NCBI RefSeq assembly: GCF_001652585.1
Contig: NZ_LWLG01000017.1
Span: 1 to 32,000 of the forward strand
Source of the DNA: Thermosulfurimonas dismutans
GTDB taxonomy: Bacteria > Desulfobacterota > Thermodesulfobacteria > Thermodesulfobacteriales > Thermodesulfobacteriaceae
Length of the DNA: 32,000 bases
Reading direction: 5' to 3'
Within the stretch, counting starts at the first letter, position 1. Each line of letters opens with the position of its first letter. The notes below the pieces were generated by a model. That model was not told the origin of the DNA and made no database searches. It worked only from the letters and a program-made list of their open reading frames with translations. Made by a program: the position numbers and the translations under genes. Positions 665 to 19,560 of the stretch are shown here, in pieces.

Positions 665-681
665 TTTACATCCCCCTCATT

Positions 682-7443: not shown

Positions 7444-7563
7444 TACAGTATCCCATAGCCTGTGCAGATTGCTTTGCTCTGAGACCGGCCAGGCTCAAGA
7501 AGGCCAAAATCTTTACCGGGGGGCCGAAATTTGAAAAAGTCGGAAAAGAAAGAGTAAAAATAG

Positions 7564-8882: not shown

Positions 8883-9036
8883 ATAATTACGTCTGAAGCT
8901 TTCCGGGAAGTTTAAGGGCTTTTCTTACGAAGGAGCCCTCAGGCTTACTATTGGTGAATCCATCAGGCTACCAGGTCAAAAATCGCCTCTAACCGGGAAT
9001 AAGTAGTTTCTAGGTCCGCAAGAAATCAATAAAAAA

Positions 9037-9114
9037 TGGCGTCCCCGGCGGGATTTGAACCCACGTTGCCGGCGTGAAAGGCCGGTGTCCTGGACCTGGC
9101 TAGACGACGGGGAC
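9037..9114 (-). tRNA. tRNA-Glu (anticodon UUC), CCA encoded
   Basis: The reverse complement folds as GTCCCCG/TC/GTC..GAC/A/CCGGC-CTTTCAC-GCCGG/CAAC/GTGGG-TTCAAAT-CCCGC/CGGGGAC/G/CCA. It is almost colinear with E. coli tRNA-Glu. Confidence 0.9.
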
Positions 9115-9155
9115 GCCGCCTTTTCCTTAAAAGCTTTTATGTCTCCTTTCTCAAG

Positions 9156-9195
9156 TGGGCCGAGCAGGATTCGAACCTACGCTTCTTAGCTTAAA
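9156..9195 (-). pseudogene. 3' fragment of a tRNA-Lys-like gene (T-arm plus acceptor 3' strand); candidate att repeat
   Basis: Positions 9150-9195 match 19482-19527 (the 3' part of intact tRNA-Lys plus 6 nt of flank) at 40/46 positions by hand alignment. No D-arm or 5' acceptor strand follows. Confidence 0.65.
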
Positions 9196-9260
9196 GCCCT
9201 GCCCGACACGTCCGAATCTTAATCAATCTTAGTATTTCTGTCAATATCTGAGGGAGGAAG

Positions 9261-9617
9261 TTAGGCCGCGGCCGGAACCTCGGAGGAAGAATTCGCGCGG
9301 GAGGCCAGCTTGCGGGCGTAGTAGTCCCTCACGGCGCGAAGCACCTCCACGAATGTGGCATCCTTCAGGCCCAGCTCCGGCACCTCGTAGCGCCCGGGAA
9401 TGTTGAGCCGACGGGCCTCGGAAAGACAAATATTGAGGTCATAAACCGGATCTTTAATGAAAGCTAAACTGTAACCCACAATACGCCCCTCAGCATCCTC
9501 GCTAATTTGATGCCCAATCTCTCCGGTAAGGGGGCTGTCTTCCCCTTCCTCGTCAGGGGAAAGGAGATGGAACCCTACAAAATCTTCTTTGAAATGGAGC
9601 CTGACGCGGTTTTTCAT
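9261..9617 (-). CDS. Hypothetical protein (118 aa)
   Basis: ORF with an AAGGAG RBS. Its GC content resembles the flanking chromosome, not the cassette array. No family recognised. Confidence 0.5.
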   Translation of the reverse strand: MKNRVRLHFKEDFVGFHLLSPDEEGEDSPLTGEIGHQISEDAEGRIVGYSLAFIKDPVYDLNICLSEARRLNIPGRYEVPELGLKDATFVEVLRAVRDYYARKLASRANSSSEVPAAA

Positions 9618-9775
9618 TTACGATAAAGCTCCTTGTTTTGAAAGATAATTCCTTTCCGCAAGACGGTAAAGATACGCCGATCCTTACGCCCCGCCACTAC
9701 ACATGAAGTGCCCCCCATTTTTGACACAACCTTTGTGTTAGGCGAAAATACTAGGAAAGGAGGGGGTCACTACAC

Positions 9776-9798
9776 GTCCGCTGAAGCGAATTGTTAGG
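9776..9798 (-). repeat. Truncated terminal attC (R''/L'' arm only)
   Basis: GTCCGCTGAAGCGAATTGTTAGG matches the right-hand arm of the other attC copies. The partner arm (CTAACGCC..CTCAGCGG) is missing at 9700-9775. Confidence 0.6.
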
Positions 9799-10045
9799 AC
9801 TTTATAATCTTTTCATATTCCGAATGTTTACCAATCCAAAACCAAACAATTCCTTCTTCTATTTCTATCCCTATGGCTCTATATTTTCTACCAATCCGCA
9901 CCGACTAGTAATTAGCAACTTTCTTCAAATGCAATGATGGATGGTACGGATCTTTCTTAAGGAGTTCAAAATTCTTATCGGCCAATCTTTTGACTTCTTC
10001 GGGTAACCTCTCATATTCTTTCCAAAAAGAGGGGCTGGCATATGC
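9794..10045 (-). pseudogene. Decayed RelE/ParE-family toxin (paralogue of 10861..11118)
   Basis: Hand translation gives ..YASPSFWKEYERLPEEVKRLADKNFELLKKDPYHPSLHLKKVANY*SVRIGRKYRAIGIEIEEGIVWFWIGKHSEYEKIIKS. It is colinear with the intact toxin but has an in-frame TAG (nt 9905-9907) where the paralogue has Trp, and no start codon. Confidence 0.7.
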
Positions 10046-10223
10046 CGGCCCGGAAATCTTTAATGGCTTGTTCTGCTAATTTTTCTAGTTTTCCTAGTTT
10101 TACATCTCTTTCGAATTCTTTATCCCAAAGTTCCTGTTCAAAATCTTCTATCCACTCTAAGAGGATTTTTAGATCATTTTCTGGCAATTTTTTAATGTTT
10201 TCGATAATTTCGTGGACTTGCAT
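10011..10223 (-). CDS. Antitoxin-like protein (paralogue of 11118..11318), C-terminally extended into the dead toxin gene
   Basis: MQVHEIIENIKKLPENDLKILLEWIEDFEQELWDKEFERDVKLGKLEKLAEQAIKDFRAG parallels MISVEEIKSIIEKLPEREFIELRKWILEKDWENWDKKIEEDSRKGLLDFLIEEALEE. The internal ATG at 10223 is preferred over the track start 10271. Confidence 0.5.
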   Translation of the reverse strand: MQVHEIIENIKKLPENDLKILLEWIEDFEQELWDKEFERDVKLGKLEKLAEQAIKDFRAGICQPLFLERI

Positions 10224-10303
10224 GAAATCGGCCCCCCAGAAAGATTCGATTCTATTTAAAATTTTAACCAATCAAGATAAAATAACCAAATATTTTAATT
10301 TCT

Positions 10304-10364
10304 CCTAACGCCCAAACTCAGCGGCGGCGCCAGTCGGCGCCGTCCGCTGAAACGAGTTGTTAGA
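10304..10364 (-). repeat. attC site (cassette 8/9 junction)
   Basis: Plus strand reads CCTAACGCCCAAACTCAGCGGC-GGCGCCAGTCGGCGCC-GTCCGCTGAAACGAGTTGTTAGA. Arms are inverted, the centre is palindromic, and the hicA stop codon lies in the core. Confidence 0.8.
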
Positions 10365-10572
10365 TTAAATTTTCTTTTTCTTCACCAATAATTTCAAATA
10401 ATTGCTTTACAATCTTAGGATGTAATATCTTTCCGCTATGGAAGGGTAAAACAAAACGTTTGTTTTCTTTCATGTAAATCCTATGACTTCCTTTACTCCT
10501 AATCAATTTAAAACCTGCTTGTAATAATAACTTTTCGGCTTCAACAGCAGTTAATCTTGGTAGTTTAGGCAA
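10360..10572 (-). CDS. hicA: HicA-family mRNA interferase toxin
   Basis: 70 aa. PKLPRLTAVEAEKLLLQAGFKLIRSKGSHRIYMKENKRFVLPFHSGKILHPKIVKQL is a typical HicA/YcfA pattern. It overlaps hicB by 8 nt and appears to use a TTG start. Confidence 0.8.
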   Translation of the reverse strand: MPKLPRLTAVEAEKLLLQAGFKLIRSKGSHRIYMKENKRFVLPFHSGKILHPKIVKQLFEIIGEEKENLI

Positions 10573-10783
10573 CCCTTACCTCTAAAGAAGTAGTCAAAAT
10601 CTCCTTGTTTAATAAAATTCTTTTTTCTTCTTCATCCAAAGTTTCTAAATATAATTCTACAGCTTCTTTAATATTTTCTAGAACTTCATCTAAAGTATCC
10701 CCCTGTGTATGACAACCTTTTAATTCAGGACAATAAGCATAGTATCCAAATTCATCTTTTTCTATTATTACTGTAACTTTCAT
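10565..10783 (-). CDS. hicB: HicB-family antitoxin (UPF0150 fold)
   Basis: 72 aa. MKVTVIIEKDEFGYYAYCPELKGCHTQGDTLDEVLENIKEAVELYLE is the canonical HicB N-terminal domain. Confidence 0.8.
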   Translation of the reverse strand: MKVTVIIEKDEFGYYAYCPELKGCHTQGDTLDEVLENIKEAVELYLETLDEEEKRILLNKEILTTSLEVRVA

Positions 10784-10806
10784 ATTCTACCTCGAATTTA
10801 TTTTTT

Positions 10807-10865
10807 TCTAACGCCTCAACTCAGCGGCTCGCTGTTAAGCGGGTCCGCTGAAGCGGGTTGTTAGG
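10807..10865 (-). repeat. attC site (cassette 7/8 junction)
   Basis: TCTAACGCCTCAACTCAGCGGCTCGCTGTTAAGCGGGTCCGCTGAAGCGGGTTGTTAGG. The toxin stop codon lies in the core. Confidence 0.8.
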
Positions 10866-11118
10866 TTCTTCTTATCATTTTCTCATAATCATCGTGTGTT
10901 CCGATCCAAACCCAAATGTAATCATTTCCGTCTTGGATTGCTAAGGCTCTGTAATAATCAGTTATTCTTACAGACCAAAATTTTCCAACCTTTTTAAAGT
11001 GCAGAGATGGATGATGTGGATTCTTTTTAAGTAATTCGAATTGTTCCTTTGCTCTCTGTTTAACTTTTTCAGGCAAGGCTTCAAAATATTTCCAAAATCT
11101 AGAAGTTGCTTTATGCAC
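10861..11118 (-). CDS. RelE/ParE-superfamily toxin
   Basis: 85 aa. FWKYFEALPEKVKQRAKEQFELLKKNPHHPSLHFKKVGKFWSVRITDYYRALAIQDGNDYIWVWIGTHDDYEKM matches the RelE/ParE-like toxin pattern. It has a 1-nt overlap with the upstream small ORF. Confidence 0.7.
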   Translation of the reverse strand: MHKATSRFWKYFEALPEKVKQRAKEQFELLKKNPHHPSLHFKKVGKFWSVRITDYYRALAIQDGNDYIWVWIGTHDDYEKMIRRT

Positions 11119-11318
11119 TAGATATCTTTTAACTTCCCTTCTCGCTTTTCCTCAAGGGCTTCTTCAATTAGAAAATCCAAGAGACCTTTTCGAGAGTCTT
11201 CTTCAATTTTTTTATCCCAGTTTTCCCAATCTTTTTCTAGAATCCATTTTCGGAGCTCGATAAATTCCCGTTCCGGCAACTTTTCAATTATGGATTTGAT
11301 TTCTTCTACCGAGATCAT
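11118..11318 (-). CDS. Cognate antitoxin (small acidic helical protein)
   Basis: 66 aa, directly upstream of and coupled to the toxin. The W..WD..IE.D...G.LD pattern is typical of partners of this toxin type. Confidence 0.55.
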   Translation of the reverse strand: MISVEEIKSIIEKLPEREFIELRKWILEKDWENWDKKIEEDSRKGLLDFLIEEALEEKREGKLKDI

Positions 11319-11378
11319 TTAACTTCTCTCCAAACTAGATTTATTTAAATTTTTAAGCTATTTTCAGAAATATTTCAA

Positions 11379-11432
11379 CTTAACGCTAATTTCAGCGGCG
11401 GCTATAGCCGTCCGCTGGAGAGGCTTGTTAGA
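11379..11432 (-). repeat. attC site (cassette 6/7 junction)
   Basis: CTTAACGCTAATTTCAGCGGCGGCTATAGCCGTCCGCTGGAGAGGCTTGTTAGA. The core variant is GTTAAGT on the cassette strand. Confidence 0.75.
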
Positions 11433-11478
11433 AGTTTTTATTCTTAAATCTCATGTTTAAGTCCTTTTATATTTTTAC

Positions 11479-12975
11479 TTAATTATATTTTACCTTGGAT
11501 TCTACATAAATTATTGCATTTTCTAATGATTTATTAAAATCATCCACCAACTGTTTATTTTCCTCTTTCCATCTTTTAAAAACTTTTGCACATCCTTTCC
11601 CCCAATATTTCTTTTGTTCACTAAACCACTTTTTCATTTTTTCACGATTATCAGTATTAGGTTTATTTGCAAGAAAAATTTCTTTTGTATATTGACCAAT
11701 TGTTCCCCAAAATTTATCTTCTGGAGATAATGATTTTAAAAAATCATAAATAACATTTTCCGGTCTTTTTTCACCAGGCAAATATACAACATTTTTATAT
11801 CTGCTTTTTTTCTTATCCCCATCTAAAACAATTATACTATAAGGAAATGTTGGAGCTTTATGTTTAAGAAGATTTAAATAATTTTCAGCACCTAAATTAA
11901 GATTAGAAATTTTAACTCGTTTTCTTAGCTTTGGATCTATTATATTTCGCAGAAATATTCTAGCTTCTTCGTCCTCTGTATATAAATTTATTTTAGGATT
12001 TTCATGTGTTGGACATATTTCATAGCGTAAAGCAGATATAATTTGTTTTAACTTATTTAAATTTTGATATGGAATTACTTTTTCACCTCGTTTTTCAAGG
12101 AAAAGAAAACTTATATCGCTTGAATTTGAAAACATTTTATCCTCTAACATTGTCAAAATATCAGTTGAGTGGGTTGTAAAAATAATTTGAATTTTAAATT
12201 CTTTCGAAAATTTTAAAAACACCTCTAATAATTTTCTTTGTGCTCCTGGAAATAAAGTAGCATCAACTTCATCTATTAATAATATTCCCCCTTTATATTT
12301 ATCTTTTAATCTATCCTTAAGTTTTTTAAAAGACAAAATAGCTGTAAGTATTTGACCTAAATTATCTTCTCCAGCAGAATTGCTGAAAGCATCATGTGTT
12401 TTATGAGAGGGCGAATAAAATCTTTTGTGCTGTGTCTTAAAATCTTCAATATTGATTAATTCTTCTGATGCAAAGATTAAGTTGTAATAATGCTCATACC
12501 ACTCTTTATCAGAATTCTCTATTTTTAATGGTTTAAGATTTATATCTTTATCTTTTTCACGAGCAATAGGAAACAACCTTTCTAATCCTAAATATATTAC
12601 AGGCAAATTGATTTTACCTTCACCAGCTGCTTTTTTACCAACATGAATTCTAAATCTTTTTTCTGTCTCATTGTATCCTCTAAAATATGCTTTACGAACT
12701 GTATTATCATCGAAAATCACTTCATAGTCATATTTACTGTTTTTCTCATGCTTGAGAGAGAAACGGAATATTTCGCTAAATTCTGTAGCAAATCTTCGAC
12801 CTAACAGAGTTCGTTGAGTACCTTTAAAATCGAAAATGTGACCTATTAATCCTAAAAGTGCTGATTTCCCCGTACCATTTCTTCCAGCAATAACTGTGAT
12901 TTTTTTACCCACTTCAAATTCAATATTTTTAAGATTTCTAAAGTGATGGATTTTTACACGTTTAATTCTCATCAA
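11479..12975 (-). CDS. ABC/AAA_15-21-type ATPase fused to a Toprim/DUF4435-like C-terminal region (OLD-like); candidate defence protein
   Basis: 498 aa. Walker A GRNGTGKS, signature-like SAGEDNLGQIL, Walker B ILLIDEVDATLFP, H-loop TTHS. The C-terminal region has acidic motifs NLYTEDEEARIFL and IIVLDGDKK, followed by YLPGEKRPENVIYDFL. Confidence 0.65.
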   Translation of the reverse strand: MMRIKRVKIHHFRNLKNIEFEVGKKITVIAGRNGTGKSALLGLIGHIFDFKGTQRTLLGRRFATEFSEIFRFSLKHEKNSKYDYEVIFDDNTVRKAYFRGYNETEKRFRIHVGKKAAGEGKINLPVIYLGLERLFPIAREKDKDINLKPLKIENSDKEWYEHYYNLIFASEELINIEDFKTQHKRFYSPSHKTHDAFSNSAGEDNLGQILTAILSFKKLKDRLKDKYKGGILLIDEVDATLFPGAQRKLLEVFLKFSKEFKIQIIFTTHSTDILTMLEDKMFSNSSDISFLFLEKRGEKVIPYQNLNKLKQIISALRYEICPTHENPKINLYTEDEEARIFLRNIIDPKLRKRVKISNLNLGAENYLNLLKHKAPTFPYSIIVLDGDKKKSRYKNVVYLPGEKRPENVIYDFLKSLSPEDKFWGTIGQYTKEIFLANKPNTDNREKMKKWFSEQKKYWGKGCAKVFKRWKEENKQLVDDFNKSLENAIIYVESKVKYN

Positions 12976-13050
12976 ATCCCCCCTTCTAATTATATTTCTT
13001 TTAAAGTTTCCTTGATTTTCTAAACAATTTTTTCAATTTCTGTTTTTTCT

Positions 13051-13109
13051 TCTAACGCCCAAACTCAGCGGCCGGCAGTCTCGCCGGTCCGCTGAAGCGG
13101 GTTGTTAGG
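13051..13109 (-). repeat. attC site (cassette 5/6 junction)
   Basis: TCTAACGCCCAAACTCAGCGGCCGGCAGTCTCGCCGGTCCGCTGAAGCGGGTTGTTAGG. Confidence 0.8.
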
Positions 13110-13115
13110 AATATT

Positions 13116-13448
13116 TTATTTAAAATCTTTATTTTCTACTAACCAACTATCGTCTGGTTTATAACCATTTTTTATTGCAGCATTATAAAACTGAGTAAAT
13201 CCAGATATGGCTTGGTTTAATGCTAAATCTTCAGTATCGTTCCATGGTCGGCTAGTAATATATGGTCCCGCTTGCAAAGGAGTATGAATAAAATGACTTT
13301 GATAGAATTCATAATATCCAGTTCTGATATTTTTGTATATTTTTATGGTAATAGTTTTCGAAATACCATCTAAAGAAAATTTATACTCTGATACTAATAC
13401 TTTAGCTTCATTAATTATTTCATCTTTAAAAATTTCTTCAATTTCCAT
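13116..13448 (-). CDS. Hypothetical cassette protein (110 aa)
   Basis: Single ORF filling the cassette, with an AGGAGG RBS inside the R' flank. No family recognised. Confidence 0.55.
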   Translation of the reverse strand: MEIEEIFKDEIINEAKVLVSEYKFSLDGISKTITIKIYKNIRTGYYEFYQSHFIHTPLQAGPYITSRPWNDTEDLALNQAISGFTQFYNAAIKNGYKPDDSWLVENKDFK

Positions 13449-13457
13449 AAAAAACCT

Positions 13458-13517
13458 CCTAACGCCTAAACTCAGCGGCCGGCGATTATCGCCGGTCCGC
13501 TGAAGAGGTTTGTTATG
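13458..13517 (-). repeat. attC site (cassette 4/5 junction)
   Basis: CCTAACGCCTAAACTCAGCGGCCGGCGATTATCGCCGGTCCGCTGAAGAGGTTTGTTATG. The ORF stop codon lies in the core. Confidence 0.8.
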
Positions 13518-14388
13518 ATTGCCTTTGTGATTTTTTCATTTCATCTGGAAACAAAATCTCAACTGGCATATCAATATATCCCGAAGCATTCCTTTCCCAA
13601 CAAAGTTTTATCTGTTTAAATTGATATTCAATATATTTATCATCACTTGCAGCTTTAGGTCCAACATATTCATTATACCTGCCAAACGTTTCCCATCTAA
13701 CTTTAATATTTTCTAATTCCATTGCTCCAACTTTTTTAGAAATAAACACAAATCCATCCCAATCAATTCTTAATTGATTTAAAATTCTATCATCTGCTTC
13801 AGAAAAAAGTTCTGCACATTTTTCTTTAGTAAAATCATTGATATGAAATTCTGGATAATGATATTTAAATAAATCTCTATAATCTAAAAATATAGTAGCA
13901 TAAGCTTCATTTCTTAGCTCTATAGGATAATCATTTTTAAGAGATACTAAAAATACTTTCACTTTTCCTCTCAATTTTTTTAAAATAGGAACAAAATCTC
14001 GATCACTAGATAATAAAATTAAAATTTCTACTTCCTTTGCGTAATCCTCTATTTTACTAGAGATAGTTGTATCAACTCCTTTTTCTGAAGAACCAGGAAG
14101 ATCCACTATATCAACATACACTCCTATTTCAGCTTTAAGTCTTTTTAACAATAATTCTTGCTCTTTTTCAGAAAATCTTTGACTCCTAGGACCGAATTTT
14201 TTTTTAGAACACACAAATTCAACAATTTCTGCCTTTTCCTTTACATCAAAATCAGCAAGTTTTTTATTAATGATTTCTCTTAAACTTTCTAAACTTAATT
14301 GTCTAGCAATATGATTTGGTTTAATTCCTAATTCAATAACACGATTAATATAATTAGGTCCATCAACAATAATCGGTATGCCTTGCAT
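13513..14388 (-). CDS. NYN/LabA-like (PIN-like) domain protein with an unknown ~110-aa C-terminal domain
   Basis: 291 aa. The IIVDGPNYINR, EKGVDTTISSKI and LLSSDRDFVPILKKL triad matches the acidic-residue layout of the NYN (DUF88) domain. Confidence 0.65.
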   Translation of the reverse strand: MQGIPIIVDGPNYINRVIELGIKPNHIARQLSLESLREIINKKLADFDVKEKAEIVEFVCSKKKFGPRSQRFSEKEQELLLKRLKAEIGVYVDIVDLPGSSEKGVDTTISSKIEDYAKEVEILILLSSDRDFVPILKKLRGKVKVFLVSLKNDYPIELRNEAYATIFLDYRDLFKYHYPEFHINDFTKEKCAELFSEADDRILNQLRIDWDGFVFISKKVGAMELENIKVRWETFGRYNEYVGPKAASDDKYIEYQFKQIKLCWERNASGYIDMPVEILFPDEMKKSQRQS

Positions 14389-14405
14389 ATTTTTTACCTT
14401 TACCT

Positions 14406-14464
14406 CCTAACGGCCAAATTCACTCGCCCGCCGTATGGCGGGTCGGGTGAAAAGGTTTGTTAGA
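14406..14464 (-). repeat. attC site, sequence-divergent but structure-conserving variant (cassette 3/4 junction)
   Basis: CCTAACGGCCAAATTCACTCGCCCGCCGTATGGCGGGTCGGGTGAAAAGGTTTGTTAGA. Both arms are changed relative to the consensus, yet they remain complementary. Confidence 0.75.
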
Positions 14465-15197
14465 TATTTTTTCTAATATAAAGTATCTCACTATCACTAA
14501 TTCTAGTTTTTATGTCCTCTTCTGAATAATCCAAAAGTTCTACGCATCTGTTGTAATATATTTCATACCATTCACCAAAATATTTATGAAAATCTGTTAC
14601 CATTTTATCAAAGGTCAGCTGTTCAAAATTCGGGCAGTCTTCATTACCTATAACTACTTTTGCTCCACCCAACATAATTCCTTGTTGAGTAAAACCGATA
14701 AGGTGCCCACAAAAATATTTAAGGGATGTAACCTGCATTGAACAGTTATCTTCTTTTTTCTTCGGAGAAGCAAAAGCCGTATGAGCGAAAATTTTATGTC
14801 TATATCTTCTATATTTTTTTATCGCATCTTCTCTCTGTTTTAAGATCTTTTTGTTTACTTCATCGCCAATCTTGTCATGCATATTCTTATATTCTTTTTT
14901 TAAAATATCTGTTAAATTTAAAGCAAAAACAATAAAGGAACCGATACGCCATATTTCTCTTGCTATGAAGGACTCTAATTTAGATTCTTTGACCCCAATA
15001 GCAGGAAATTTTTCTATTAATTTTTTGTTCATCTTAATATCACTTTTATAAGAATTATAAATTTCCAATAATATTCTTAAAATACTATCAATTGAAGAAA
15101 GTATATCTATTGAGGGAATAGTCATTATATAATTTTGAGAATTTCTTCTTAAAGATAGTACTAAATATGGCAAAGAACGAAATGAGTATTCTAACAT
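14460..15197 (-). CDS. Hypothetical cassette protein with a HEPN-like R-x5-H motif
   Basis: 245 aa. KKYRRYRHKIFAHTAF resembles the R[NH]xxxAH HEPN catalytic motif. The protein is otherwise unrecognised. Confidence 0.45.
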   Translation of the reverse strand: MLEYSFRSLPYLVLSLRRNSQNYIMTIPSIDILSSIDSILRILLEIYNSYKSDIKMNKKLIEKFPAIGVKESKLESFIAREIWRIGSFIVFALNLTDILKKEYKNMHDKIGDEVNKKILKQREDAIKKYRRYRHKIFAHTAFASPKKKEDNCSMQVTSLKYFCGHLIGFTQQGIMLGGAKVVIGNEDCPNFEQLTFDKMVTDFHKYFGEWYEIYYNRCVELLDYSEEDIKTRISDSEILYIRKNI

Positions 15198-15222
15198 TAT
15201 CCCTTCCTTTTTAGATTTATCA

Positions 15223-15281
15223 TCTAACGCCTAAACTCAGCAGCCGGCGTATACGCCGGTCCGCTGGAGCGAATTGTTAGA
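15223..15281 (-). repeat. attC site (cassette 2/3 junction)
   Basis: TCTAACGCCTAAACTCAGCAGCCGGCGTATACGCCGGTCCGCTGGAGCGAATTGTTAGA. Confidence 0.8.
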
Positions 15282-15455
15282 TTATTTTCATTTTCCTGTT
15301 CTTTTTCAGAAAAAACGTCCATTATCTTCTTGTTCTCTTCCTTTTAAACCTAAAATCCTGCGAAGCAGTATTCAATTTCTTTTTTATCCTGATTCGCCCG
15401 ACTCTTGAAGTGTATTTCTTACCGATTTATGCAATCAATTCTACGGACCGATCTC

Positions 15456-16103
15456 TCAATTTCTCCTTTTTGCAGAGCTGATTATTGAATTAATATAATC
15501 GTTGATCTCTTTAATTCTTGACCCAAGTATAATATTATAGCCCTTTAGTCTTTTATCCCATACTCTTTTTGCTAAGCGAACAAAATGTAAAAAATCATTT
15601 TTCATATCTTCTTGAAACTCTTCATCAATTATGACTCCAGAAACAGGACCAGTACCTGTGATCCGTTCTGTAAATGATTCTTTTTTATATGCAGTTTTCA
15701 TATCTAAATCGTATCTTACTCCTATACCCAGCTTATCTATCTTCTGGATCCTTTCAAAAGTTTGTTTGGTACATATTCTATATTTGCCATTCGCTCTTTC
15801 TTTGCATTCTGCAATAATTTTACTTAAATTGTGACTGCATTTTCTTGCTACTATATATGCCTCTTTAGCGGTTTCGTCTTTTTTAGATAATCCTATCAGT
15901 ATTGCTTTTAATATGCACTCGAGTGCCATTCTGAGCATAATGAACTGTTTAGTCATAATAGACATGTTGTGAACAGGGAAACTTTGACTGTGATGATATA
16001 GAGCAATCCAATCAGCTGCATCTCTGAAGAAATGGCCAAATAAAACAGCTTTTACATGTGACTCTAAGGAAAACCGTTTGCCAATCTTTTTTAATGTAGT
16101 CAT
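15456..16103 (-). CDS. HEPN-domain-like protein
   Basis: 215 aa. The helix pattern ALECILKAILIGL .. CSHNLSKIIAE .. LGIGVRYD resembles the classical HEPN domain (..E.aLKA.L.. / ..tHdL..L.. / ..RY..). A canonical Rx4-6H motif is not evident. Confidence 0.5.
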   Translation of the reverse strand: MTTLKKIGKRFSLESHVKAVLFGHFFRDAADWIALYHHSQSFPVHNMSIMTKQFIMLRMALECILKAILIGLSKKDETAKEAYIVARKCSHNLSKIIAECKERANGKYRICTKQTFERIQKIDKLGIGVRYDLDMKTAYKKESFTERITGTGPVSGVIIDEEFQEDMKNDFLHFVRLAKRVWDKRLKGYNIILGSRIKEINDYINSIISSAKRRN

Positions 16104-16115
16104 TTATTTATCGTG

Positions 16116-16172
16116 TCTAACGCCAAACTCAGCGGCGCCATGTAATGGCGTCCGCTGAAGAGATTTGTTAGG
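16116..16172 (-). repeat. attC site (cassette 1/2 junction)
   Basis: TCTAACGCCAAACTCAGCGGCGCCATGTAATGGCGTCCGCTGAAGAGATTTGTTAGG. The ORF stop codon lies in the core. Confidence 0.8.
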
Positions 16173-17010
16173 TCTTTTCATTAATAATCCTATTTGCAAA
16201 ATAATTATCAAAAAAGTTTAAAAAGTCTCGAAGTCCCAAAATAATAGAATTAAGTAGTTTCTCTACCTCAAATCTGTCTTGAATTATTGTAACTAAGTAA
16301 TGGTCTCCTCGTTCATAAAAAGAAATATCAATAGAACCAACATGAGTAACATAATCTCTTATATCGCGAACAATAAAAAACCATTCCATGTGATTTTTTA
16401 TGTATTGTTTCATAGTATCATCTGAAATTTCTCCCGATCTATGTTTATCTTTGCAAATATATTTTATATAATCAGAAAAACTACAGAATTGACGAGAACT
16501 AGGACCATACAAGAAATGGAGCATAGTAGCAATTGAATCCATAATACTTCTTACATTAAATAAAAGACCAGCGATCTCTGATTTTAATGCATAAACTTGG
16601 TCACCTATATTAAATGAAGGCTGTCCTGTTCTTGGAAGTATTTTCCGAGTTTTTTGGTAATAAACTTGGATGTCTTTAATTATTTTTTGTATCCTTTCAA
16701 TATTCAAAGTTAAAGAATAAAGCTTATCAGCTATGTATTTAAAGTTAAATACATAATATTGTCCTGCTAAAAAATATTGTCGAATATATCCATTTTTAGT
16801 TTCTATATAATATCCTATATGATGAAATCTTTCCCAATATCTAGTCTTTAAAATAGCTTTTCTAAGTTGTGGAAAAGGATCTTTTAAAGCAGGTATTGTA
16901 TAACTAACTAGTTTACCCCGGGAGGGAGATAAGCTTACTCTGTAAGTATTCCTTAATCTTTCTTGTATTTTCTCTTGCGCTTGTTTAGTTTTTATAATTT
17001 CAAAACGCAT
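16168..17010 (-). CDS. Hypothetical first-cassette protein with a possible HEPN R-x4-H motif
   Basis: 280 aa. The C-terminal half contains WFFIVRDIRDYVTHVGS (RDYVTH = Rx4H). No family recognised with certainty. Confidence 0.45.
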   Translation of the reverse strand: MRFEIIKTKQAQEKIQERLRNTYRVSLSPSRGKLVSYTIPALKDPFPQLRKAILKTRYWERFHHIGYYIETKNGYIRQYFLAGQYYVFNFKYIADKLYSLTLNIERIQKIIKDIQVYYQKTRKILPRTGQPSFNIGDQVYALKSEIAGLLFNVRSIMDSIATMLHFLYGPSSRQFCSFSDYIKYICKDKHRSGEISDDTMKQYIKNHMEWFFIVRDIRDYVTHVGSIDISFYERGDHYLVTIIQDRFEVEKLLNSIILGLRDFLNFFDNYFANRIINEKT

Positions 17011-17075
17011 TTTTATTTATCTAACATTACTTTTATACTTTCTTAGATTTAAAGCCTATTGCCAATATTTTTGGA

Positions 17076-17105
17076 ATGATAGCTTTTTACAATAAAAAAT
17101 GTCAA
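17076..17105 (-). promoter_or_regulatory. Candidate cassette promoter Pc (TTGACA-18 nt-TATCAT)
   Basis: On the minus strand, the -35 TTGACA is at 17105-17100 and the -10 TATCAT at 17081-17076. It points into the cassette array from within attI. Confidence 0.4.
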
Positions 17106-17222
17106 ACATTAAGATTAAATCTTATTACGAATCTCTTGAGATAATAGAGGATAAAAATGTTTATTTTTATTTTTATGTCTTAAAATTTCTTAAAATCTAA
17201 CTTTCTGGATAATACACAAAAT

Positions 17223-17251
17223 TTGCCTAATTTTGCAAAGTAAAATAAGAT
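17223..17251 (+). promoter_or_regulatory. Candidate intI promoter (TTGCCT-17 nt-TAAGAT)
   Basis: Hexamers at 17223-17228 and 17246-17251, about 40 nt upstream of the intI ATG. Confidence 0.3.
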
Positions 17252-17290
17252 GGCTTGCAGATAATATCTTTGCTGGCAAAAAGGATCAAA

Positions 17291-18358
17291 ATGGAATCGC
17301 AAGAAAAGTTGATGGAAAAATTTGGGGCCTTTCTCAAGAAGGTGGAAAAGCGAGAAAGGGTGGTCCCCTTCATGGTGCGGTGGGTGGTGCAGGCCCTGCA
17401 GGAATATGAACTGCCCCCCGGACAAAAGTTAGCCCCCGCTCAGAAAAAACAATTTCTCTTTAAATTATCCCAAAAATACGAGCCTTGGCAAGTAGAACAG
17501 GCTGATCGGGCCTTAAAGCTATATGAGTATTTCCTGAACACCTTATCCCAAAAATCTCCGACAGAGAGGACAGAGGCCGAATGGGCGGAGGCCTTGGAGA
17601 AGGCCAGAGAGGTCCTCAGGCGCAAACGGTACTCCTACCGCACCGAAAAATCTTACCTTGACTGGATAAGATGCCTGGCCGAATATCTGGACTACAAATC
17701 ACCGGAAGAAGTTTCCGGCGAGGATTTTCAGGATTTTCTCACCCATCTTGCCGTGGAAAGAAACGTAGCCCCTTCCACCCAGAATCAGGCTTTAAATGCC
17801 CTGGTGTTCTTTTATCGCCATGTGCTCGAAAAAGAAATTGATCCCTATATTGAGGCCGTAAAGGCCCGGGAGAGAAGAAGGCTTCCGGTGGTGCTAAGCC
17901 GGGAAGAGGTGGAGGCCGTGCTCTCGGTCTCGGAACTTGAGGAAACCTATTATCTAATCTGTGCCCTCATGTATGGAGGGGGCTTGAGAGTAAGTGAGAC
18001 GGTAAGACTCCGGGTAAAAGATCTGGATTTTGAACGAGGCTTGATCACGGTATTTTCCGGCAAGGGAGACAAAGACCGGGTAACCGTAGATCCGCGGACT
18101 GAGACCGTGCGTCGGCATCACATCCATCCCAGTGCGGTGCAACGGGCCTTCAAGAAGGCGCTACGGAAGGCCAGAGTGGAAAAACCCGCTACGGTGCATT
18201 CCCTGCGGCACAGCTTCGCTACCCACCTCCTTGAGGACGGCTACGATATTCGTACCATTCAGGAACTTCTGGGGCACAAGAGTCTGAGCACCACTATGAT
18301 TTACACTCATATCGTGGGACGGCGGGTCACCGGGGTGGTGAGTCCGCTTGACCGCTAA
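17291..18358 (+). CDS. intI: Integron integrase (IntI-type tyrosine recombinase), apparently lacking the IntI-specific insertion
   Basis: The sequence is colinear with IntI1 as I recall it. Matching blocks are RYSYRTEKSYLDWIRCLAEYL, STQNQALNALVFFYRHVL, RRLPVVLSREEV, GGLRVSETVRLRVKDLDFERGLITVFSGKGDKDR, DPRTETVRRHHIHPSAVQRAFKKA, HSLRHSFATHLLEDGYDIRTIQELLGH and TTMIYTH. The ATG at 17291 has an AAGGA RBS, whereas the track start 17255 is a TTG. Confidence 0.85.
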   Translation: MESQEKLMEKFGAFLKKVEKRERVVPFMVRWVVQALQEYELPPGQKLAPAQKKQFLFKLSQKYEPWQVEQADRALKLYEYFLNTLSQKSPTERTEAEWAEALEKAREVLRRKRYSYRTEKSYLDWIRCLAEYLDYKSPEEVSGEDFQDFLTHLAVERNVAPSTQNQALNALVFFYRHVLEKEIDPYIEAVKARERRRLPVVLSREEVEAVLSVSELEETYYLICALMYGGGLRVSETVRLRVKDLDFERGLITVFSGKGDKDRVTVDPRTETVRRHHIHPSAVQRAFKKALRKARVEKPATVHSLRHSFATHLLEDGYDIRTIQELLGHKSLSTTMIYTHIVGRRVTGVVSPLDR

Positions 18359-18374: not shown

Positions 18375-18701
18375 ATGCGTATACTAGCCACGATTCTGAT
18401 GGTGATCGGGTATCTTTTAATAGGGGCCCATTTTCTGCGGGCTGGGCATTCGTTGGTGGCCCTGGGGCTTGCCTTTGCGCCGGCTCTTCTCTTTCTCAAA
18501 CACCGGATGGTGCGCCTGATCCTTTCCGCAGGCCTGGGGCTGGCCCTTATTGAATGGGGCCGGACTTTCGTTTTCCTGAAACGGATCTATGAGGCTCACG
18601 GCCTTCCTTTCAGCAAGTCTGGTTTCATCCTGGGAGGAGTAATGGCCGTTACCTTTCTGGCCGTAGCCCTCAACCTGCGGGAGGATCTGCGGAACAAATG
18701 A
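18375..18701 (+). CDS. Small integral membrane protein (3-4 predicted TM helices)
   Basis: MRILATILMVIGYLLIGAHFL.. is hydrophobic throughout. AAAGGAG RBS at 18362-18368. ATGA coupling to the downstream ABC remnant. Confidence 0.55.
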   Translation: MRILATILMVIGYLLIGAHFLRAGHSLVALGLAFAPALLFLKHRMVRLILSAGLGLALIEWGRTFVFLKRIYEAHGLPFSKSGFILGGVMAVTFLAVALNLREDLRNK

Positions 18702-18968
18702 TCCGGGTCCGCCATCTGCACTATCGTTACCCGGAAGGAACTCGGGAGGCCCTTTCCGGGATCTCGCTTACGGTAAATCCGGGAGAGGTGCTGCTTCTTT
18801 CCGTCCTCTGCTGACTTATTCCTTCACAGGCCGGAGGTGAGTTTTCCGGAGAGGTGAAGGTTCTGGGGCGAAAGGCTCCCTTTTCTCCCGCGGAGGTCTT
18901 TCCCGAGGTGGCCTTCGGGCTTGAAAACCTGGGGTATCCGGAAAGGGAACTCGAAAATAAACTAAGCA
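18698..18968 (+). pseudogene. Decayed ABC transporter ATP-binding gene (EcfA/CbiO-like) remnant
   Basis: MIRVRHLHYRYPEGTREALSGISLTVNPGEVLLLSVLC* then, in the same frame, LIPSQAGGEFSGEVKVLGRK..EVAFGLENLGYPERELENKL. The Walker A segment is missing, there is an in-frame TGA at 18812-18814, and homology ends abruptly near 18968. Confidence 0.65.
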
Positions 18969-19295
18969 TCAACCCAAGCTATCGCCAACAAAAGTGGCGG
19001 ATAGTCGTCTACTCCCAACTTTAAGCTCAAATGCAAACGCAGGGACATGAACTATAAGGGAGTAAAGAGCATCCTTTAGTAAACGCGAATCGGCCTCTAC
19101 AGAAAGAAAAACGCCTAGAGGTAAGGAAAGAGACGAATTGGCAGCAGAAGAAACAAAACCTGTAAGACGGGTCTTGAAACCATCTGCTATTTCCACTAAT
19201 TCAAACTCGGGCATACGAACCTTTCCTACTACCTGCTTAGTATCCTTGTCTATTATATCAATAACCATATAAAAGGCCTCAAAGGATTCAAGCAC
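18969..19295 (-). CDS. Hypothetical protein (108 aa)
   Basis: ORF only; no recognisable motifs. It starts exactly where the ABC remnant ends. Confidence 0.3.
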   Translation of the reverse strand: MLESFEAFYMVIDIIDKDTKQVVGKVRMPEFELVEIADGFKTRLTGFVSSAANSSLSLPLGVFLSVEADSRLLKDALYSLIVHVPAFAFELKVGSRRLSATFVGDSLG

Positions 19296-19487
19296 TGGCT
19301 CTACCGAAGGCTTCCTTTTTTCCAGGTGGTTTATCCAGAAAGCTTGGCAAAGGAAATAGAAGAGGATCTTTCTTTTTTCCTAAGTAAGCTAAAGAAAGAT
19401 GATCTCCAATGATTTAATTGCCTATATCAAACAAATCCTTTCGGACACCTAAATTAAGGCGGAGGACTGAAACCCTTGATCCTCAAG

Positions 19488-19560
19488 TGGGCCGGGCAGG
19501 ATTCGAACCTGCGACTCCTGGCTTAAAAGGCCAGTACTCTGCCAGCTGAGTTACCGGCCC
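19488..19560 (-). tRNA. tRNA-Lys (anticodon UUU), CCA not encoded
   Basis: The reverse complement reads GGGCCGG/TA/ACTC-AGCTGGCA-GAGT/A/CTGGC-CTTTTAA-GCCAG/GAGTC/GCAGG-TTCGAAT-CCTGC/CCGGCCC/A. This is a perfect 73-nt cloverleaf. Confidence 0.9.

What the first reader, a model, noticed from the sequence alone, without database searches (positions are those of the whole stretch)
9776..18358. Complete nine-cassette integron with a single homogeneous attC family
Eight ~55-61-bp elements lie at 10304-10364, 10807-10865, 11379-11432, 13051-13109, 13458-13517, 14406-14464, 15223-15281 and 16116-16172, plus a half-site at 9776-9798. They share the plus-strand pattern YCTAAC-GCC-AAACTCAGCGGC-[variable centre]-GTCCGCTGAAG-nnn-TTGTTAGR. 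On the cassette (minus) strand this reads R'' (CCTAAC) - L'' ... L' - R' (GTTAGA/GTTAAG, fitting GTTRRRY). The two arms are complementary except for one unpaired T (GG-T-CCGCTGA) on the strand that would be the recombinogenic bottom strand. Each centre differs in sequence but is itself palindromic. The copy at 14406 has both arms altered in a compensatory way. Conserved structure with divergent sequence is the attC hallmark. Each interval holds one ORF or one TA operon, all on the minus strand. Six ORFs (five intact, one pseudogene) use the TAA inside R'' as their stop codon. A divergent IntI-type recombinase and an attI-like core complete the platform. By eye the array is far more AT-rich than the GC-richer flanks. 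If the host is a thermophile, as the protein composition hints, this would be an unusual setting for an integron.
Basis: partly seen in the sequence, partly recalled or inferred. Interest (0 to 1): 0.8.

Follow-up and report, generated by a model that had tools for sequence, protein, structure and literature searches.

The report
Thermophile integron with a crippled integrase
This is a genuine chromosomal integron (a gene-cassette capture system) in the 74 °C deep-sea vent bacterium Thermosulfurimonas dismutans, but its integrase gene has lost the 61 amino acids that define integron integrases, so the array is probably frozen.

Summary
Eight full repeats of 56-63 bp and one half-repeat lie at the stated coordinates. 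All are in one orientation and none occurs elsewhere in the 32 kb. They fit canonical attC geometry on the + strand: RYYYAAC/GTTRRRY boxes, a 6-7-nt unpaired spacer, a purine bulge, a 6-bp stem, a T bulge and a GC-rich terminal hairpin, with compensatory changes. The attI crossover (17019-17025) is pinned by comparison from both sides. Cassettes 7, 8 and 9 recur at 80-95% nucleotide identity in metagenome arrays, in other contexts. The array is 31% GC and the flanks are 54-56%. The host is T. dismutans (growth optimum 74 °C).

"Complete" is not supported. IntI scores above the integron-integrase cut-off (TIGR02249, 311 bits against 265). It nevertheless carries a clean 183-bp in-frame deletion at a CCGT microhomology. 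This removes the IntI-specific domain, equivalent to VchIntIA residues 168-227, which all 55 aligned homologues keep. The last attC is cut in half and the last cassette's toxin gene has a stop codon.

The best reading is a sedentary chromosomal integron caught early in decay, as seen in Xanthomonas. It is a new member of a known kind and of moderate interest.

The parts
17291..18358 (+). intI with an in-frame deletion (355 aa). The catalytic residues R233, K258, H303, R306, H329 and Y338 are retained, but the IntI-specific domain is missing.
   Evidence: TIGR02249 scores 310.9 bits against a cut-off of 265. XerC and XerD score far below their cut-offs. The best solved structure is VchIntIA 2a3v at 1.4e-59, matched in two blocks that skip chain residues 168-227. 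The protein is 100% identical to a T. dismutans protein.
18084..18087 (+). Junction of the 183-bp (61-codon) deletion, at a CCGT microhomology.
   Evidence: blastn against L001 and L002 gives two blocks that overlap in the window but lie 183 bp apart in the homologues. The sequences at both deletion endpoints are shown.
17291..17590 (+). N-terminal extension of IntI, about 100 aa, absent from the IntI1/VchIntIA type and conserved across a clade of about 410-aa IntIs.
   Evidence: It lies outside the TIGR02249 and Pfam matches. W66, Q67, Q70, A71 and A74 are invariant in 56 sequences. AlphaFold2 predicts four helices with pLDDT of about 72-91 over residues 1-80 and about 67 over 81-90. Its weak fold matches are to recombinase core-binding domains.
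17019..17045 (-). attI. The core reads GTTAGAT on the minus strand (17025 down to 17019). It is followed by a conserved block, 17021-17045 on the + strand.
   Evidence: Platform homology with L002 and L217 runs from intI to about 17011, and the identical block ends at CTAAC. Homologues of cassette 1 in L200, L207 and L210 match 16826-17025 and there abut an attC instead.
17076..17105 (-). Candidate cassette promoter Pc, TTGACA-18 nt-TATCAT, facing the array.
   Evidence: It matches the consensus at 11 of 12 positions. The -10 element is conserved in L002 but the -35 is not. This is a consensus match only.
16121..17024 (-). Cassette 1: ORF 16168-17010 (280 aa, unknown function) plus attC1.
   Evidence: No Pfam or PADLOC hit. 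The first 200 bp are 88-90% identical to metagenome cassettes.
16115..16173 (+). attC1 (59 nt; the + strand is the bottom strand).
   Evidence: 66.3 bits with the covariance model. Fold.
15228..16120 (-). Cassette 2: ORF 15456-16103 (215 aa, unknown function), a 173-nt non-coding tail (15283-15455) and attC2.
   Evidence: No attC remnant is detected in the tail with filters off.
15222..15282 (+). attC2 (61 nt).
   Evidence: 82.4 bits.
14411..15227 (-). Cassette 3: ORF 14460-15197 (245 aa, unknown function; faint HEPN_AbiU2 similarity at E=0.05) plus attC3.
14405..14465 (+). attC3 (61 nt), with compensatory changes in the L stem.
   Evidence: 77.9 bits. Pair counts.
13463..14410 (-). Cassette 4: ORF 13513-14388 (291 aa, NYN-domain nuclease-like) plus attC4.
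   Evidence: PF01936 at 4.5e-8.
13457..13518 (+). attC4 (62 nt). Its R'' box is the variant GTTATGA.
   Evidence: 80.5 bits. Sequence.
13056..13462 (-). Cassette 5: ORF 13116-13448 (110 aa, unknown function) plus attC5. The cassette's 5' end, TTAGGAGG, supplies the ribosome-binding site.
13050..13110 (+). attC5 (61 nt).
   Evidence: 85.5 bits.
11384..13055 (-). Cassette 6: ORF 11479-12972 (497 aa, ABC/OLD-type ATPase; candidate anti-phage defence gene) plus attC6.
   Evidence: AAA_15 and AAA_21. PADLOC gives a full-length match to ATPase-Toprim_I-B, and also matches PtuA, GajA and AriA.
11378..11433 (+). attC6 (56 nt). It is the most divergent site, with R' reading ACTTAAC.
   Evidence: 57.7 bits.
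10812..11383 (-). Cassette 7: antitoxin (11118-11318, 66 aa) and ParE-like toxin (10861-11118, 85 aa) plus attC7.
   Evidence: PF24732 at 8e-10. The cassette is 87% identical at nucleotide level to L226 and L228 over 10798-11433.
10806..10866 (+). attC7 (61 nt).
   Evidence: 83.4 bits.
10309..10811 (-). Cassette 8: HicB antitoxin (10565-10783) and HicA toxin (10360-10572) plus attC8.
   Evidence: HicB_lk_antitox at 3.8e-10 and HicA_toxin at 1.8e-13. The cassette is 94% identical to L140 and 95% identical to L217, where it is the fourth cassette from attI.
10303..10365 (+). attC8 (63 nt).
   Evidence: 72.2 bits.
9776..10308 (-). Cassette 9 (decayed): a paralogue of cassette 7. The antitoxin-like ORF is 10011-10271. 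The toxin pseudogene has an in-frame stop where the cassette-7 paralogue has Trp.
   Evidence: tblastn gives 54% identity to the cassette-7 toxin, with '*' in 'KKVANY*SVRI'. The cassette is 80% identical at nucleotide level to L134.
9776..9799 (+). Truncated terminal attC. Only the L''-R'' half survives, and the break is at 9775|9776.
   Evidence: L134 and L196 carry full attC sites at the homologous place. Homology to the window starts exactly at 9775/9776.

Best explanation
The region 9776-18358 is a sedentary chromosomal integron of Thermosulfurimonas dismutans. In relatives with an intact integrase, the likely mechanism is as follows. The + strand of each attC folds into a hairpin made of an R stem, a 6-7-nt unpaired spacer, an L stem with an extrahelical purine and an extrahelical T six base pairs apart, and a GC-rich terminal stem. 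IntI binds this bottom strand and cuts between A and C of the 5' AAC. It then excises cassettes as circles (attC x attC) or inserts them at attI (core at 17019-17025). Cassettes are read leftwards from a promoter between intI and attI. In this strain a 183-bp in-frame deletion at a CCGT microhomology has removed the IntI-specific domain, which carries the I2 helix that docks the extrahelical bases. The integrase can therefore very probably no longer recombine attC hairpins. The array is frozen and starting to erode: the terminal attC is truncated and the cassette-9 toxin carries a stop codon. Three toxin-antitoxin cassettes at the distal end probably help to retain the array.

Shown here: the attC structure and its covariation, the attI boundary, cassette sharing with other arrays, the deletion, and the host identity. 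Inferred: the loss of integrase activity, promoter use, and stabilisation of the array by the toxin-antitoxin cassettes.
For: attC sites. There are eight full sites in one orientation, all inside the array. Across 30 sites from 5 sources, 94% of cells are paired, the covariation score is 0.41 against 0.12 in shuffles, and slid controls pair at 30-57%. With the purine at position 16 left unpaired, the next pair is U-A in 30 of 30 sites and the pair after it covaries (UA 15, CG 9). This matches the published geometry of G16, a 6-bp stem and T23/24 (PMC5027507).

IntI identity. TIGR02249 is above its cut-off, the best solved structure is VchIntIA, and the Xer models fall below their cut-offs.

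Deletion.. The motif K-Y-P-x-A-G-K-x-W-x-W-F-W-x-F-P is nearly invariant in the homologues and absent here. The I2 helix docks the extrahelical bases, and the domain was reported as necessary for activity (PMC7790495, which cites Messier & Roy 2001 and MacDonald 2006).

attI. The boundary is pinned from both sides.

Mobility of the same cassettes. HicAB is 94-95% identical in L140 and L217 at a different array position. Cassette 7 is 87% identical in L226 and L228.

Related intact platform. Thermosulfurimonas sp. F29 has a full-length intI next to attC sites of the same family.

Decay..

Precedent. Lineage-specific intI inactivation with stable arrays is documented in Xanthomonas (10.1101/2025.06.18.660453).
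Against: Loss of activity is inferred, not measured. The shortened gene has no further lesion. Its lineage-specific changes (20 synonymous, 4 non-synonymous) equal those of the intact L002 gene. The deletion is therefore either very recent or the gene is still under selection. A second intI elsewhere in the 2.1-Mb draft genome could act in trans, and I could not search for one. IntegronFinder's attC model and its intI_Cterm profile were not run. My covariance model was built from these same sites, so it is independent evidence only for the sites found in other loci. The genome is a 454 draft (PMC4911364), so the deletion has not been confirmed by a second method.
Confidence: 0.82

Rival explanations
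1. This is a fully functional, complete integron. The shortened IntI would still recombine attC hairpins despite lacking the I2-containing domain.
For: The reading frame is intact and all six catalytic residues are kept. There is no excess of non-synonymous change on this lineage. Some attC sites recombine efficiently without extrahelical bases (PMC5027507).
Against: All other 55 aligned members of this IntI clade keep the domain, including sequences that are 82-86% identical over the aligned N-terminal region. The domain docks the extrahelical bases and was reported as necessary for activity. The array shows decay at its distal end.
Confidence: 0.08
2. This is not an integron. The repeats would be generic REP-like or terminator-like palindromes, and the recombinase a Xer or phage integrase.
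For: The inner palindrome TCAGCGG...CCGCTGA is common. A loose pattern hit at least 120 unrelated genomes.
Against: The full 67-position model hits nothing outside the array in the 32 kb. Every interval holds one ORF or one toxin-antitoxin pair on one strand. The same sites lie beside intact intI and attI in L001 and L217. Homology blocks with other arrays begin and end at attC cores. NCBIfam XerC and XerD score 164 and 156 bits against cut-offs of 335 and 330.
Confidence: 0.01
3. The 183-bp deletion is an assembly or sequencing artefact, and the real gene is full length.
For: The genome is a 61-contig 454/Newbler draft. The breakpoints share only a short microhomology.
Against: A 4-nt microhomology plus a weak 13-nt similarity is far too short to collapse 635-nt reads. 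The junction is clean and in frame. The same 355-aa protein is in NCBI and UniRef.
Confidence: 0.05
4. The I2-less IntI has been kept because it has a different job. It would act as a Xer-like recombinase on double-stranded DNA, for example moving the whole 10.3-kb segment that is bracketed by copies of the tRNA-Lys 3' half.
For: There is no sign of relaxed selection. A 47-nt copy of the tRNA-Lys 3' half at 9150-9197 is 87% identical to 19482-19530, in direct orientation, and the two copies bracket the integron. IntI retains ancestral double-strand activity that I2 mutations raise (PMC7790495). The intI flank differs in F29 and L002 immediately after the stop codon.
Against: There is no direct evidence. 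The deletion removes 61 aa, far more than the I2 helix. The repeat may be the scar of an unrelated, older element. The segment between the repeats also holds GC-rich, host-like DNA.
Confidence: 0.04

Closest known systems
Sedentary chromosomal integrons, for example the Vibrio cholerae superintegron (VchIntIA and VCR sites; PDB 2a3v)
   Same: intI and the array are divergent. One homogeneous attC family is present (76% mean column identity). The bottom-strand hairpin has R and L boxes, an unpaired spacer, two extrahelical bases on the arm opposite AAC, and a terminal stem. Most cassettes carry a single ORF of unknown function, and toxin-antitoxin cassettes are present. The location is chromosomal.
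   Different: There are only 8-9 cassettes. The IntI belongs to a clade of about 410 aa with an extra N-terminal four-helix domain. The IntI-specific domain is deleted. The first extrahelical base is A in 6 of 8 sites rather than the usual G. Cassettes are about 20 GC points below the platform and genome. The host grows at 74 °C.
Xanthomonas chromosomal integrons with lineage-specific intI inactivation (Gillings et al. 2005; 10.1101/2025.06.18.660453)
   Same: An ancestral platform has had intI disabled by a deletion. The cassette array is then stable, while relatives keep full-length intI.
   Different: Here the lesion is a clean in-frame loss of exactly the signature domain, leaving an otherwise intact ORF. 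The phylum and the temperature regime are different.
CALIN elements (clusters of attC sites lacking an integron integrase; Cury et al. 2016, PMC4889954)
   Same: This is probably how IntegronFinder would label the locus, because a recombinase lacking intI_Cterm does not count as IntI.
   Different: An IntI-derived gene and attI are still adjacent to the array. The locus is therefore a decaying complete integron, not an orphan array.
XerC/XerD/XerA tyrosine recombinases
   Same: They share the catalytic fold and the SAM-like N-terminal domain. After the deletion the protein lacks the insertion that distinguishes IntI from Xer.
   Different: Sequence places the protein firmly within IntI (TIGR02249 above its cut-off; VchIntIA at 1e-59 against XerA at 5e-33). 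The conserved IntI motif DPxxxxxRRHH is retained.

Membership tests
Integron (platform plus cassettes) | intI: a tyrosine recombinase of the IntI clade | tested here: met
   TIGR02249 scores 310.9 bits against a cut-off of 265. The Xer models fall below their cut-offs. The best solved structure is VchIntIA. The nearest homologues are annotated as integron integrases.
Integron (platform plus cassettes) | IntI-specific additional domain near patch III (the I2 helix; IntegronFinder's intI_Cterm) | tested here: not met
   61 aa are absent, equivalent to VchIntIA 168-227. The domain is present in all 55 aligned homologues. A 183-bp deletion is seen at the DNA level. The intI_Cterm profile itself was not run.
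Integron (platform plus cassettes) | attI next to intI, with a GTTRRRY core at the boundary between platform and first cassette | tested here: met
   GTTAGAT lies at 17025 down to 17019. Platform homology and cassette homology meet there.
Integron (platform plus cassettes) | Pc promoter reading into the array | tested here: inconclusive
   TTGACA-18 nt-TATCAT at 17105 down to 17076 matches 11 of 12 positions. This is a consensus match only, and the -35 is not conserved in L002.
attC recombination site | R' is 5'-RYYYAAC and R'' is 5'-GTTRRRY on the bottom strand, and they pair with each other | tested here: met
   AAC and GTT are present in 8 of 8 sites. The full purine/pyrimidine consensus is met only loosely; for example R' reads TCCTAAC or TTCTAAC, attC4 has GTTATGA and attC6 has ACTTAAC. 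The R stem is 91-93% paired.
attC recombination site | Extrahelical bases on the arm opposite the AAC triplet: the first in L'' (position 16, usually G), then a 6-bp stem, then T at position 23/24 | tested here: met
   The bulged T is at position 23 by my count and is predicted in 7 of 8 MFE folds; in attC2 it lies within a small internal loop. The 6-bp stem CCGCTG/CAGCGG is present. Position 16 is a purine (A in 6 sites, G in 2), and leaving it unpaired gives U-A in 30 of 30 sites plus a covarying pair. The definition is from PMC5027507.
attC recombination site | Unpaired central spacer of about 5-6 nt per arm, and a variable terminal structure | tested here: met
   The spacer is 6-7 nt on the 5' arm and 6 nt on the 3' arm. 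The terminal stems differ in sequence but pair, and all 5 pairs of the terminal stem show changes on both sides.
attC recombination site | Scored by IntegronFinder's attC covariance model | not testable with these tools
   That model is not available here. My own model (R2) is circular for the window sites but is independent evidence for sites in L001, L021, L041, L217 and at least 80 metagenome contigs.
Gene cassette | A discrete unit (ORF plus its own attC), bounded at G|TT and found in different contexts | tested here: met
   Cassettes 7, 8 and 9 and the 5' end of cassette 1 match other arrays, with the matching blocks ending at attC or attI cores. HicAB is the 8th cassette here and the 4th in L217.
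Integron (platform plus cassettes) | Integrase-dependent excision and insertion of cassettes | not testable with these tools
   This needs recombination assays. I predict activity is lost in this strain.
XerC/XerD | Score above the curated equivalog cut-off | tested here: not met
   XerC scores 164 bits against 335, XerD 156 against 330 and XerA 178 against 220.

The most novel reading that the evidence does not exclude
The clean, in-frame loss of exactly the I2-bearing domain is not simple decay. It would be a natural 'atavistic' IntI, kept under selection, that has reverted towards Xer-like recombination of double-stranded DNA. It might be connected with the tRNA-Lys half-site repeats (9150-9197 and 19482-19530) that bracket the whole 10.3-kb segment carrying the integron. 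A weaker but more probable version (about 0.6) concerns the lineage rather than this strain. The intact integrons of this lineage (F29 and metagenome relatives) would carry out single-strand hairpin recombination at about 74 °C, using GC-rich attC hairpins embedded in a cassette pool of about 30% GC.
Probability: 0.05. Interest if true: 0.8.

Novelty: new member of a known kind. Interest (0 to 1): 0.42.

Why it matters
Integron recombination depends on a folded single DNA strand, so a well-formed integron lineage in bacteria growing at about 74 °C is a useful natural test of how that mechanism copes with heat. A rough nearest-neighbour estimate puts the melting point of the inner attC hairpins at 78-90 °C. 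This strain also offers a natural allele that removes the domain believed to have turned a Xer-like enzyme into an integron integrase. That allele can be compared directly with intact relatives that are 82-93% identical. The 20-point GC gap between cassettes and platform, seen in several related arrays, suggests that the cassette pool evolves separately from any one host genome. None of this changes what an integron is. Neither the T. dismutans genome paper nor the F29 genome paper mentions the element.

Tried and rejected
- Exact-sequence look-ups of the window's IntI and of a flanking 660-aa protein found nothing on record. The host was identified instead through the homology search.
- The first covariance model (R1) was built with a mis-typed structure that omitted the T bulge. 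I discarded it and used R2.
- The only genome-contig scan used too loose a pattern (TCAGCGG N10-26 GTCCGCTGR). I therefore could not list all copies in the T. dismutans genome or test whether the repeats occur genome-wide. The scan did show the same attC type in Endozoicomonas, Nitrospinae and Thermodesulfobacteriota MAGs.
- ViennaRNA folding with DNA parameters at 74-85 °C gave non-physical results, with energies falling again and isolated pairs appearing. I replaced it with a rough SantaLucia-type hairpin estimate.
- Rfam has no match in the array.
- Pfam and PADLOC give nothing convincing for cassette proteins 1, 2, 3 and 5 or for the flanking 118-aa and 108-aa ORFs.
- My by-eye reading of 18698-18970 as the remnant of an ABC ATPase gene got no Pfam support.
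- I looked for a decayed attC in the 173-nt tail of cassette 2 and found none.
- The second ATCTAAC at 17205-17211 was rejected as the attI core because it is not conserved in L002.
- Messier & Roy 2001 is not held, so it is cited through PMC7790495.
- The L217 intI alignment is unreliable because that gene has a stop codon and a frameshift, and I ignored it.

Full report

Yes. All are in the same orientation. Refined coordinates are given in the parts list.

The right-arm motif GTCCGCTGRAG occurs exactly seven times, all inside the array on the + strand. With two mismatches allowed, no shuffle reaches the observed count. A covariance model built from the eight sites (R2) finds only those eight. 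This holds with default filters over the whole 32-kb window and with filters off over 9400-17400. Scores are 58-85 bits on the + strand and at most 25 bits on the - strand.

Each interval holds one ORF or one two-gene toxin-antitoxin pair on the minus strand. Five intact ORFs and one pseudogene stop at the TAA inside R''. Composition also agrees. The array is 31.2% GC with GC3 of 13-39%. The flanks are 54-56% GC with GC3 of 57-63%. intI is 52% GC and the attC sites are 56% GC.

**2. Are the repeats attC sites?**

I could not run IntegronFinder's model, so I tested the defining features one by one against the published description (PMC5027507).

- *R boxes.* On the + strand each site starts with an RYYYAAC-type box and ends with a GTTRRRY-type box. 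AAC and GTT are invariant, though the full purine/pyrimidine consensus is met only loosely (for example TCCTAAC, TTCTAAC). The two boxes pair with each other.
- *Spacer and stems.* A 6-7-nt unpaired spacer follows on each arm. Next come a stem (CAGCGG/CCGCTG), a bulged T on the 3' arm, and a GC-rich terminal stem-loop whose sequence differs from site to site.
- *Position of the T.* Counting from the outer end of R'', the T is at position 23. The literature places the conserved distal extrahelical T at position 23/24.
- *A second extrahelical base.* The canonical site also has an extrahelical base at position 16, separated from the T by a 6-bp stem. Here position 16 is a purine (A in six sites, G in two). 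In an alignment of 30 sites from five sources, leaving it unpaired turns the adjacent pair into U-A in 30 of 30 sites. It also adds a pair that covaries (UA 15, CG 9, UG 2). The geometry is the canonical one: purine 16, a 6-bp stem, then T23.
- *Overall pairing.* 94% of cells pair, against 77% in shuffles and 30-57% when partners are slid. The covariation score is 0.41 against 0.12-0.13. All five pairs of the terminal stem show changes on both sides. That alignment is fitted to the model, so it leans towards the structure, but the slid controls do not share that bias. The compensatory changes in the 14406 copy are real.
- *Strand.* Both extrahelical bases lie on the arm opposite the AAC of the + strand.

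**3. The integrase**

The ORF 17291-18358 (355 aa) scores 310.9 bits on NCBIfam TIGR02249 "integron integrase" (cut-off 265). It falls far below the cut-offs for XerC, XerD and XerA. Its best solved relative is VchIntIA (2a3v, 1.4e-59), ahead of XerA at 4.8e-33. It is 100% identical to a Thermosulfurimonas dismutans protein that NCBI calls a tyrosine recombinase and UniRef calls an integron integrase.

The match to VchIntIA comes in two blocks: query 102-265 with chain 6-167, and query 264-355 with chain 228-319. Sixty residues of VchIntIA have no counterpart. Aligned with its closest relatives (about 74-93% identical over aligned columns; for example 90% by BLASTP for P0002) the window protein lacks 61 residues. 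These are VFPRKLTPELEVHLAKIRKIYHQDRRAGVAGVYLPYALERKYPEAGKEWSWFWLFPSKDLS in P0002. The K-Y-P-x-A-G-K-x-W-x-W-F-W-x-F-P motif in this segment is nearly invariant across the 55 homologues.

At the DNA level the deletion is 183 bp. The junction sits in a shared CCGT, and the sequences following each endpoint are weakly similar. This is the signature of a slippage or illegitimate-recombination deletion.

The lost segment is the IntI-specific region near patch III. IntegronFinder uses this region (intI_Cterm) to tell IntI from other tyrosine recombinases (PMC4889954). It carries the I2 helix that docks the extrahelical bases, and Messier & Roy (2001) reported it as necessary for activity (cited in PMC7790495). 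The six catalytic residues are all kept.

I infer that the enzyme can no longer handle attC hairpins. This is an inference, not a measurement. A parsimony count gives 20 synonymous and 4 non-synonymous changes specific to the T. dismutans gene. The intact L002 gene gives exactly the same numbers. The deletion is therefore either recent or the shortened gene is still constrained.

**4. attI and promoter**

The intergenic region is 24% GC. Compared with a metagenome relative (L002, intact intI), conservation runs from intI to a fully identical block, CTAACATTACTTTTATACTTTCTTA (17021-17045). It is lost on the cassette side of CTAAC.

The evidence from the other side agrees. Three metagenome contigs carry a homologue of the first 200 bp of cassette 1. 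Their match to the window ends at 17025, and in those contigs that point lies in the R' box of an attC. The crossover site is therefore GTTAGAT (17025 down to 17019 on the minus strand).

A second ATCTAAC at 17205-17211 is not conserved, so I rejected it. A strong sigma-70-like match (TTGACA-18 nt-TATCAT, 17105 down to 17076) faces the array. It is a candidate Pc only.

**5. Cassettes**

- Cassettes 1, 2, 3 and 5 encode proteins with no family match.
- Cassette 4 encodes a NYN-domain protein.
- Cassette 6 encodes a 497-aa ABC/OLD-type ATPase with a full-length PADLOC match (ATPase-Toprim_I-B). It also matches PtuA, GajA and AriA models. This fits recent reports that integron cassettes carry phage defence genes (10.1101/2024.07.02.601719).
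- Cassette 7 is a ParE-like toxin-antitoxin pair, and cassette 8 is HicAB.
- Cassette 9 is a paralogue of cassette 7. Its toxin gene has an in-frame stop where the paralogue has Trp, and its attC is cut in half. A metagenome homologue (L134, 80% identity) has a full attC at the homologous place, and its match to the window begins exactly at 9775/9776.

The count is therefore eight complete cassettes plus one decayed terminal cassette.

**6. Relatives and mobility**

Thermosulfurimonas sp. F29 has a full-length intI followed by six or seven attC sites of the same family and two IS elements. Its flank beyond the intI stop codon is unrelated to the window.

My model scored 121 sites in the first 80 contigs, often several per contig in one orientation.

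Whole cassettes are shared between arrays. HicAB is 94% identical in L140. It is 95% identical in L217, where it is the fourth cassette from a related attI rather than the eighth. Cassette 7 is 87% identical in L226 and L228. The matching blocks end at attC cores. This is direct comparative evidence that these units move as cassettes.

The same attC archetype also appears in an Endozoicomonas MAG (12 sites in 8 kb), a Nitrospinae MAG and a Thermodesulfobacteriota MAG.

In every related platform examined, intI is 49-52% GC. The cassette side is 29-30% GC in L002 and L217 and 37% in F29 (L001). The compositional gap thus belongs to the lineage and not to this strain alone.

**7. Host and literature**

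T. dismutans S95 is a deep-sea vent bacterium with a growth optimum of 74 °C and a genome of 50.1% GC, sequenced as a 61-contig 454 draft (PMC4911364, PMC9676032). Neither that genome paper nor the F29 genome paper mentions an integron or an integrase. No paper in the searched library combines "Thermosulfurimonas" and "integron". A survey of vent microbes with IntegronFinder lists mainly CALINs and a few complete integrons in other taxa (PMC10295459).

A rough nearest-neighbour estimate puts the melting temperature of the inner hairpins at 78-90 °C in 1 M NaCl, with free energy at 74 °C of -0.8 to -5.3 kcal/mol. The core hairpin could therefore form at growth temperature. The 5-bp AT-rich R stem would probably need the protein. 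This is an estimate only, because the ViennaRNA high-temperature runs were unusable.

**8. Verdict**

The element is a real integron with textbook attC geometry, a mapped attI, and cassettes shared with other arrays. It is not "complete" in the functional or the IntegronFinder sense. The integrase has lost its signature domain, the distal end of the array is eroding, and the most likely state is a recently frozen sedentary chromosomal integron. The closest precedent is repeated intI inactivation in Xanthomonas.

I rate it a new member of a known kind, with moderate interest. That interest rests on four things:

- the thermophilic setting;
- the natural deletion of the I2-bearing domain, with intact close relatives available for comparison;
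- the decoupling of cassette and platform composition;
- an undescribed N-terminal domain in this IntI clade.

**9. Limits**

- No activity data exist.
- IntegronFinder's attC model and intI_Cterm profile were not run.
- The rest of the T. dismutans genome was not searched for a second intI or for other attC copies.
- The environments of the metagenome contigs are unknown to me.

Noticed in passing
window 9150-9197 and 19482-19530: A 47-nt copy of the 3' half of tRNA-Lys, 87% identical, lies 36 nt from tRNA-Glu. Its last 29 nt have one mismatch, and it includes 5 nt beyond the tRNA end. It is in direct orientation with the intact tRNA-Lys (19487-19560). The two copies bracket 10.3 kb that contain the whole integron, a 118-aa ORF, a 108-aa membrane ORF and AT-rich DNA. 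This looks like the att scars of a tRNA-integrated island, but no dedicated island integrase is present.
   Followed up: partly
window 17291-17590 (IntI residues 1-100): IntI has an N-terminal extension of about 100 aa that IntI1 and VchIntIA lack. Most of the 120 best hits are about 410 aa long and cover about 98% of the query, and the 56 aligned sequences share the extension. W66, Q67, Q70, A71 and A74 are invariant. It has no Pfam or PDB sequence match. AlphaFold2 predicts a four-helix domain (pLDDT about 72-91 over residues 1-80). Its weak fold matches (TM 0.55-0.58, E 0.3-5) are to the core-binding domains of VchIntIA, XerA and lambda Int, which suggests a duplicated core-binding domain.
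   Followed up: partly
window 682-3490 and 7971-8882: Type III-A CRISPR-Cas genes (Csm2 and Cas10/Csm1 with an HD domain) and a Cas6 gene lie left of the integron. A 1252-aa SEC-C/TPR protein (3685-7443) lies between them. The integron therefore sits in a region rich in defence genes.
   Followed up: no
window 11479-12972: The cassette-6 ATPase gives a full-length match to the PADLOC model ATPase-Toprim_I-B and matches to PtuA, GajA and AriA. It is a candidate single-gene anti-phage cassette.
   Followed up: partly
window 15283-15455: A 173-nt non-coding tail lies between the stop codon of cassette 2 and attC2. The other cassettes end within about 50 nt of their attC or inside it. One stretch (15371-15399) weakly resembles the sequence upstream of attC5, but no attC remnant is detected.
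   Followed up: partly
window 18375-19480 and 19636-20592: To the right of intI lie a 108-aa membrane ORF and a stretch that by eye looks like a broken ABC-ATPase gene (18698-18970), which Pfam does not support. AT-rich DNA with a 108-aa ORF of no known family follows, then tRNA-Lys and an IS transposase (DDE_Tnp_1).
   Followed up: partly
L001 (Thermosulfurimonas sp. F29) 1-11146: The F29 integron has an intact intI but its array is interrupted by two transposase genes (DDE_Tnp_1 and DDE_3). One attC (4193-4261) is inverted next to them. The gene after intI is a CCA-adding enzyme, so the platform sits in a different genomic context from T. dismutans.
   Followed up: partly
L217 2822-3785 (metagenome contig): A related platform keeps the segment deleted in T. 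dismutans, but its intI has an internal stop codon and a frameshift. It may be a second, independent case of intI decay in this lineage, or a sequencing error.
   Followed up: no
L021 (Endozoicomonas MAG) 1025-7702: Twelve attC sites of the same sequence type (TAACGCCAAATTCAGCGGC...GTCCGCTGGAAT...TTGTTA) lie within 8 kb of a gammaproteobacterial MAG. This attC archetype therefore crosses phyla.
   Followed up: partly
window 13449-13466: The 5' end of cassette 5 (TTAGGAGG, the part of the R' box that travels with the downstream cassette) doubles as the ribosome-binding site, 6 nt upstream of the ATG.
   Followed up: no
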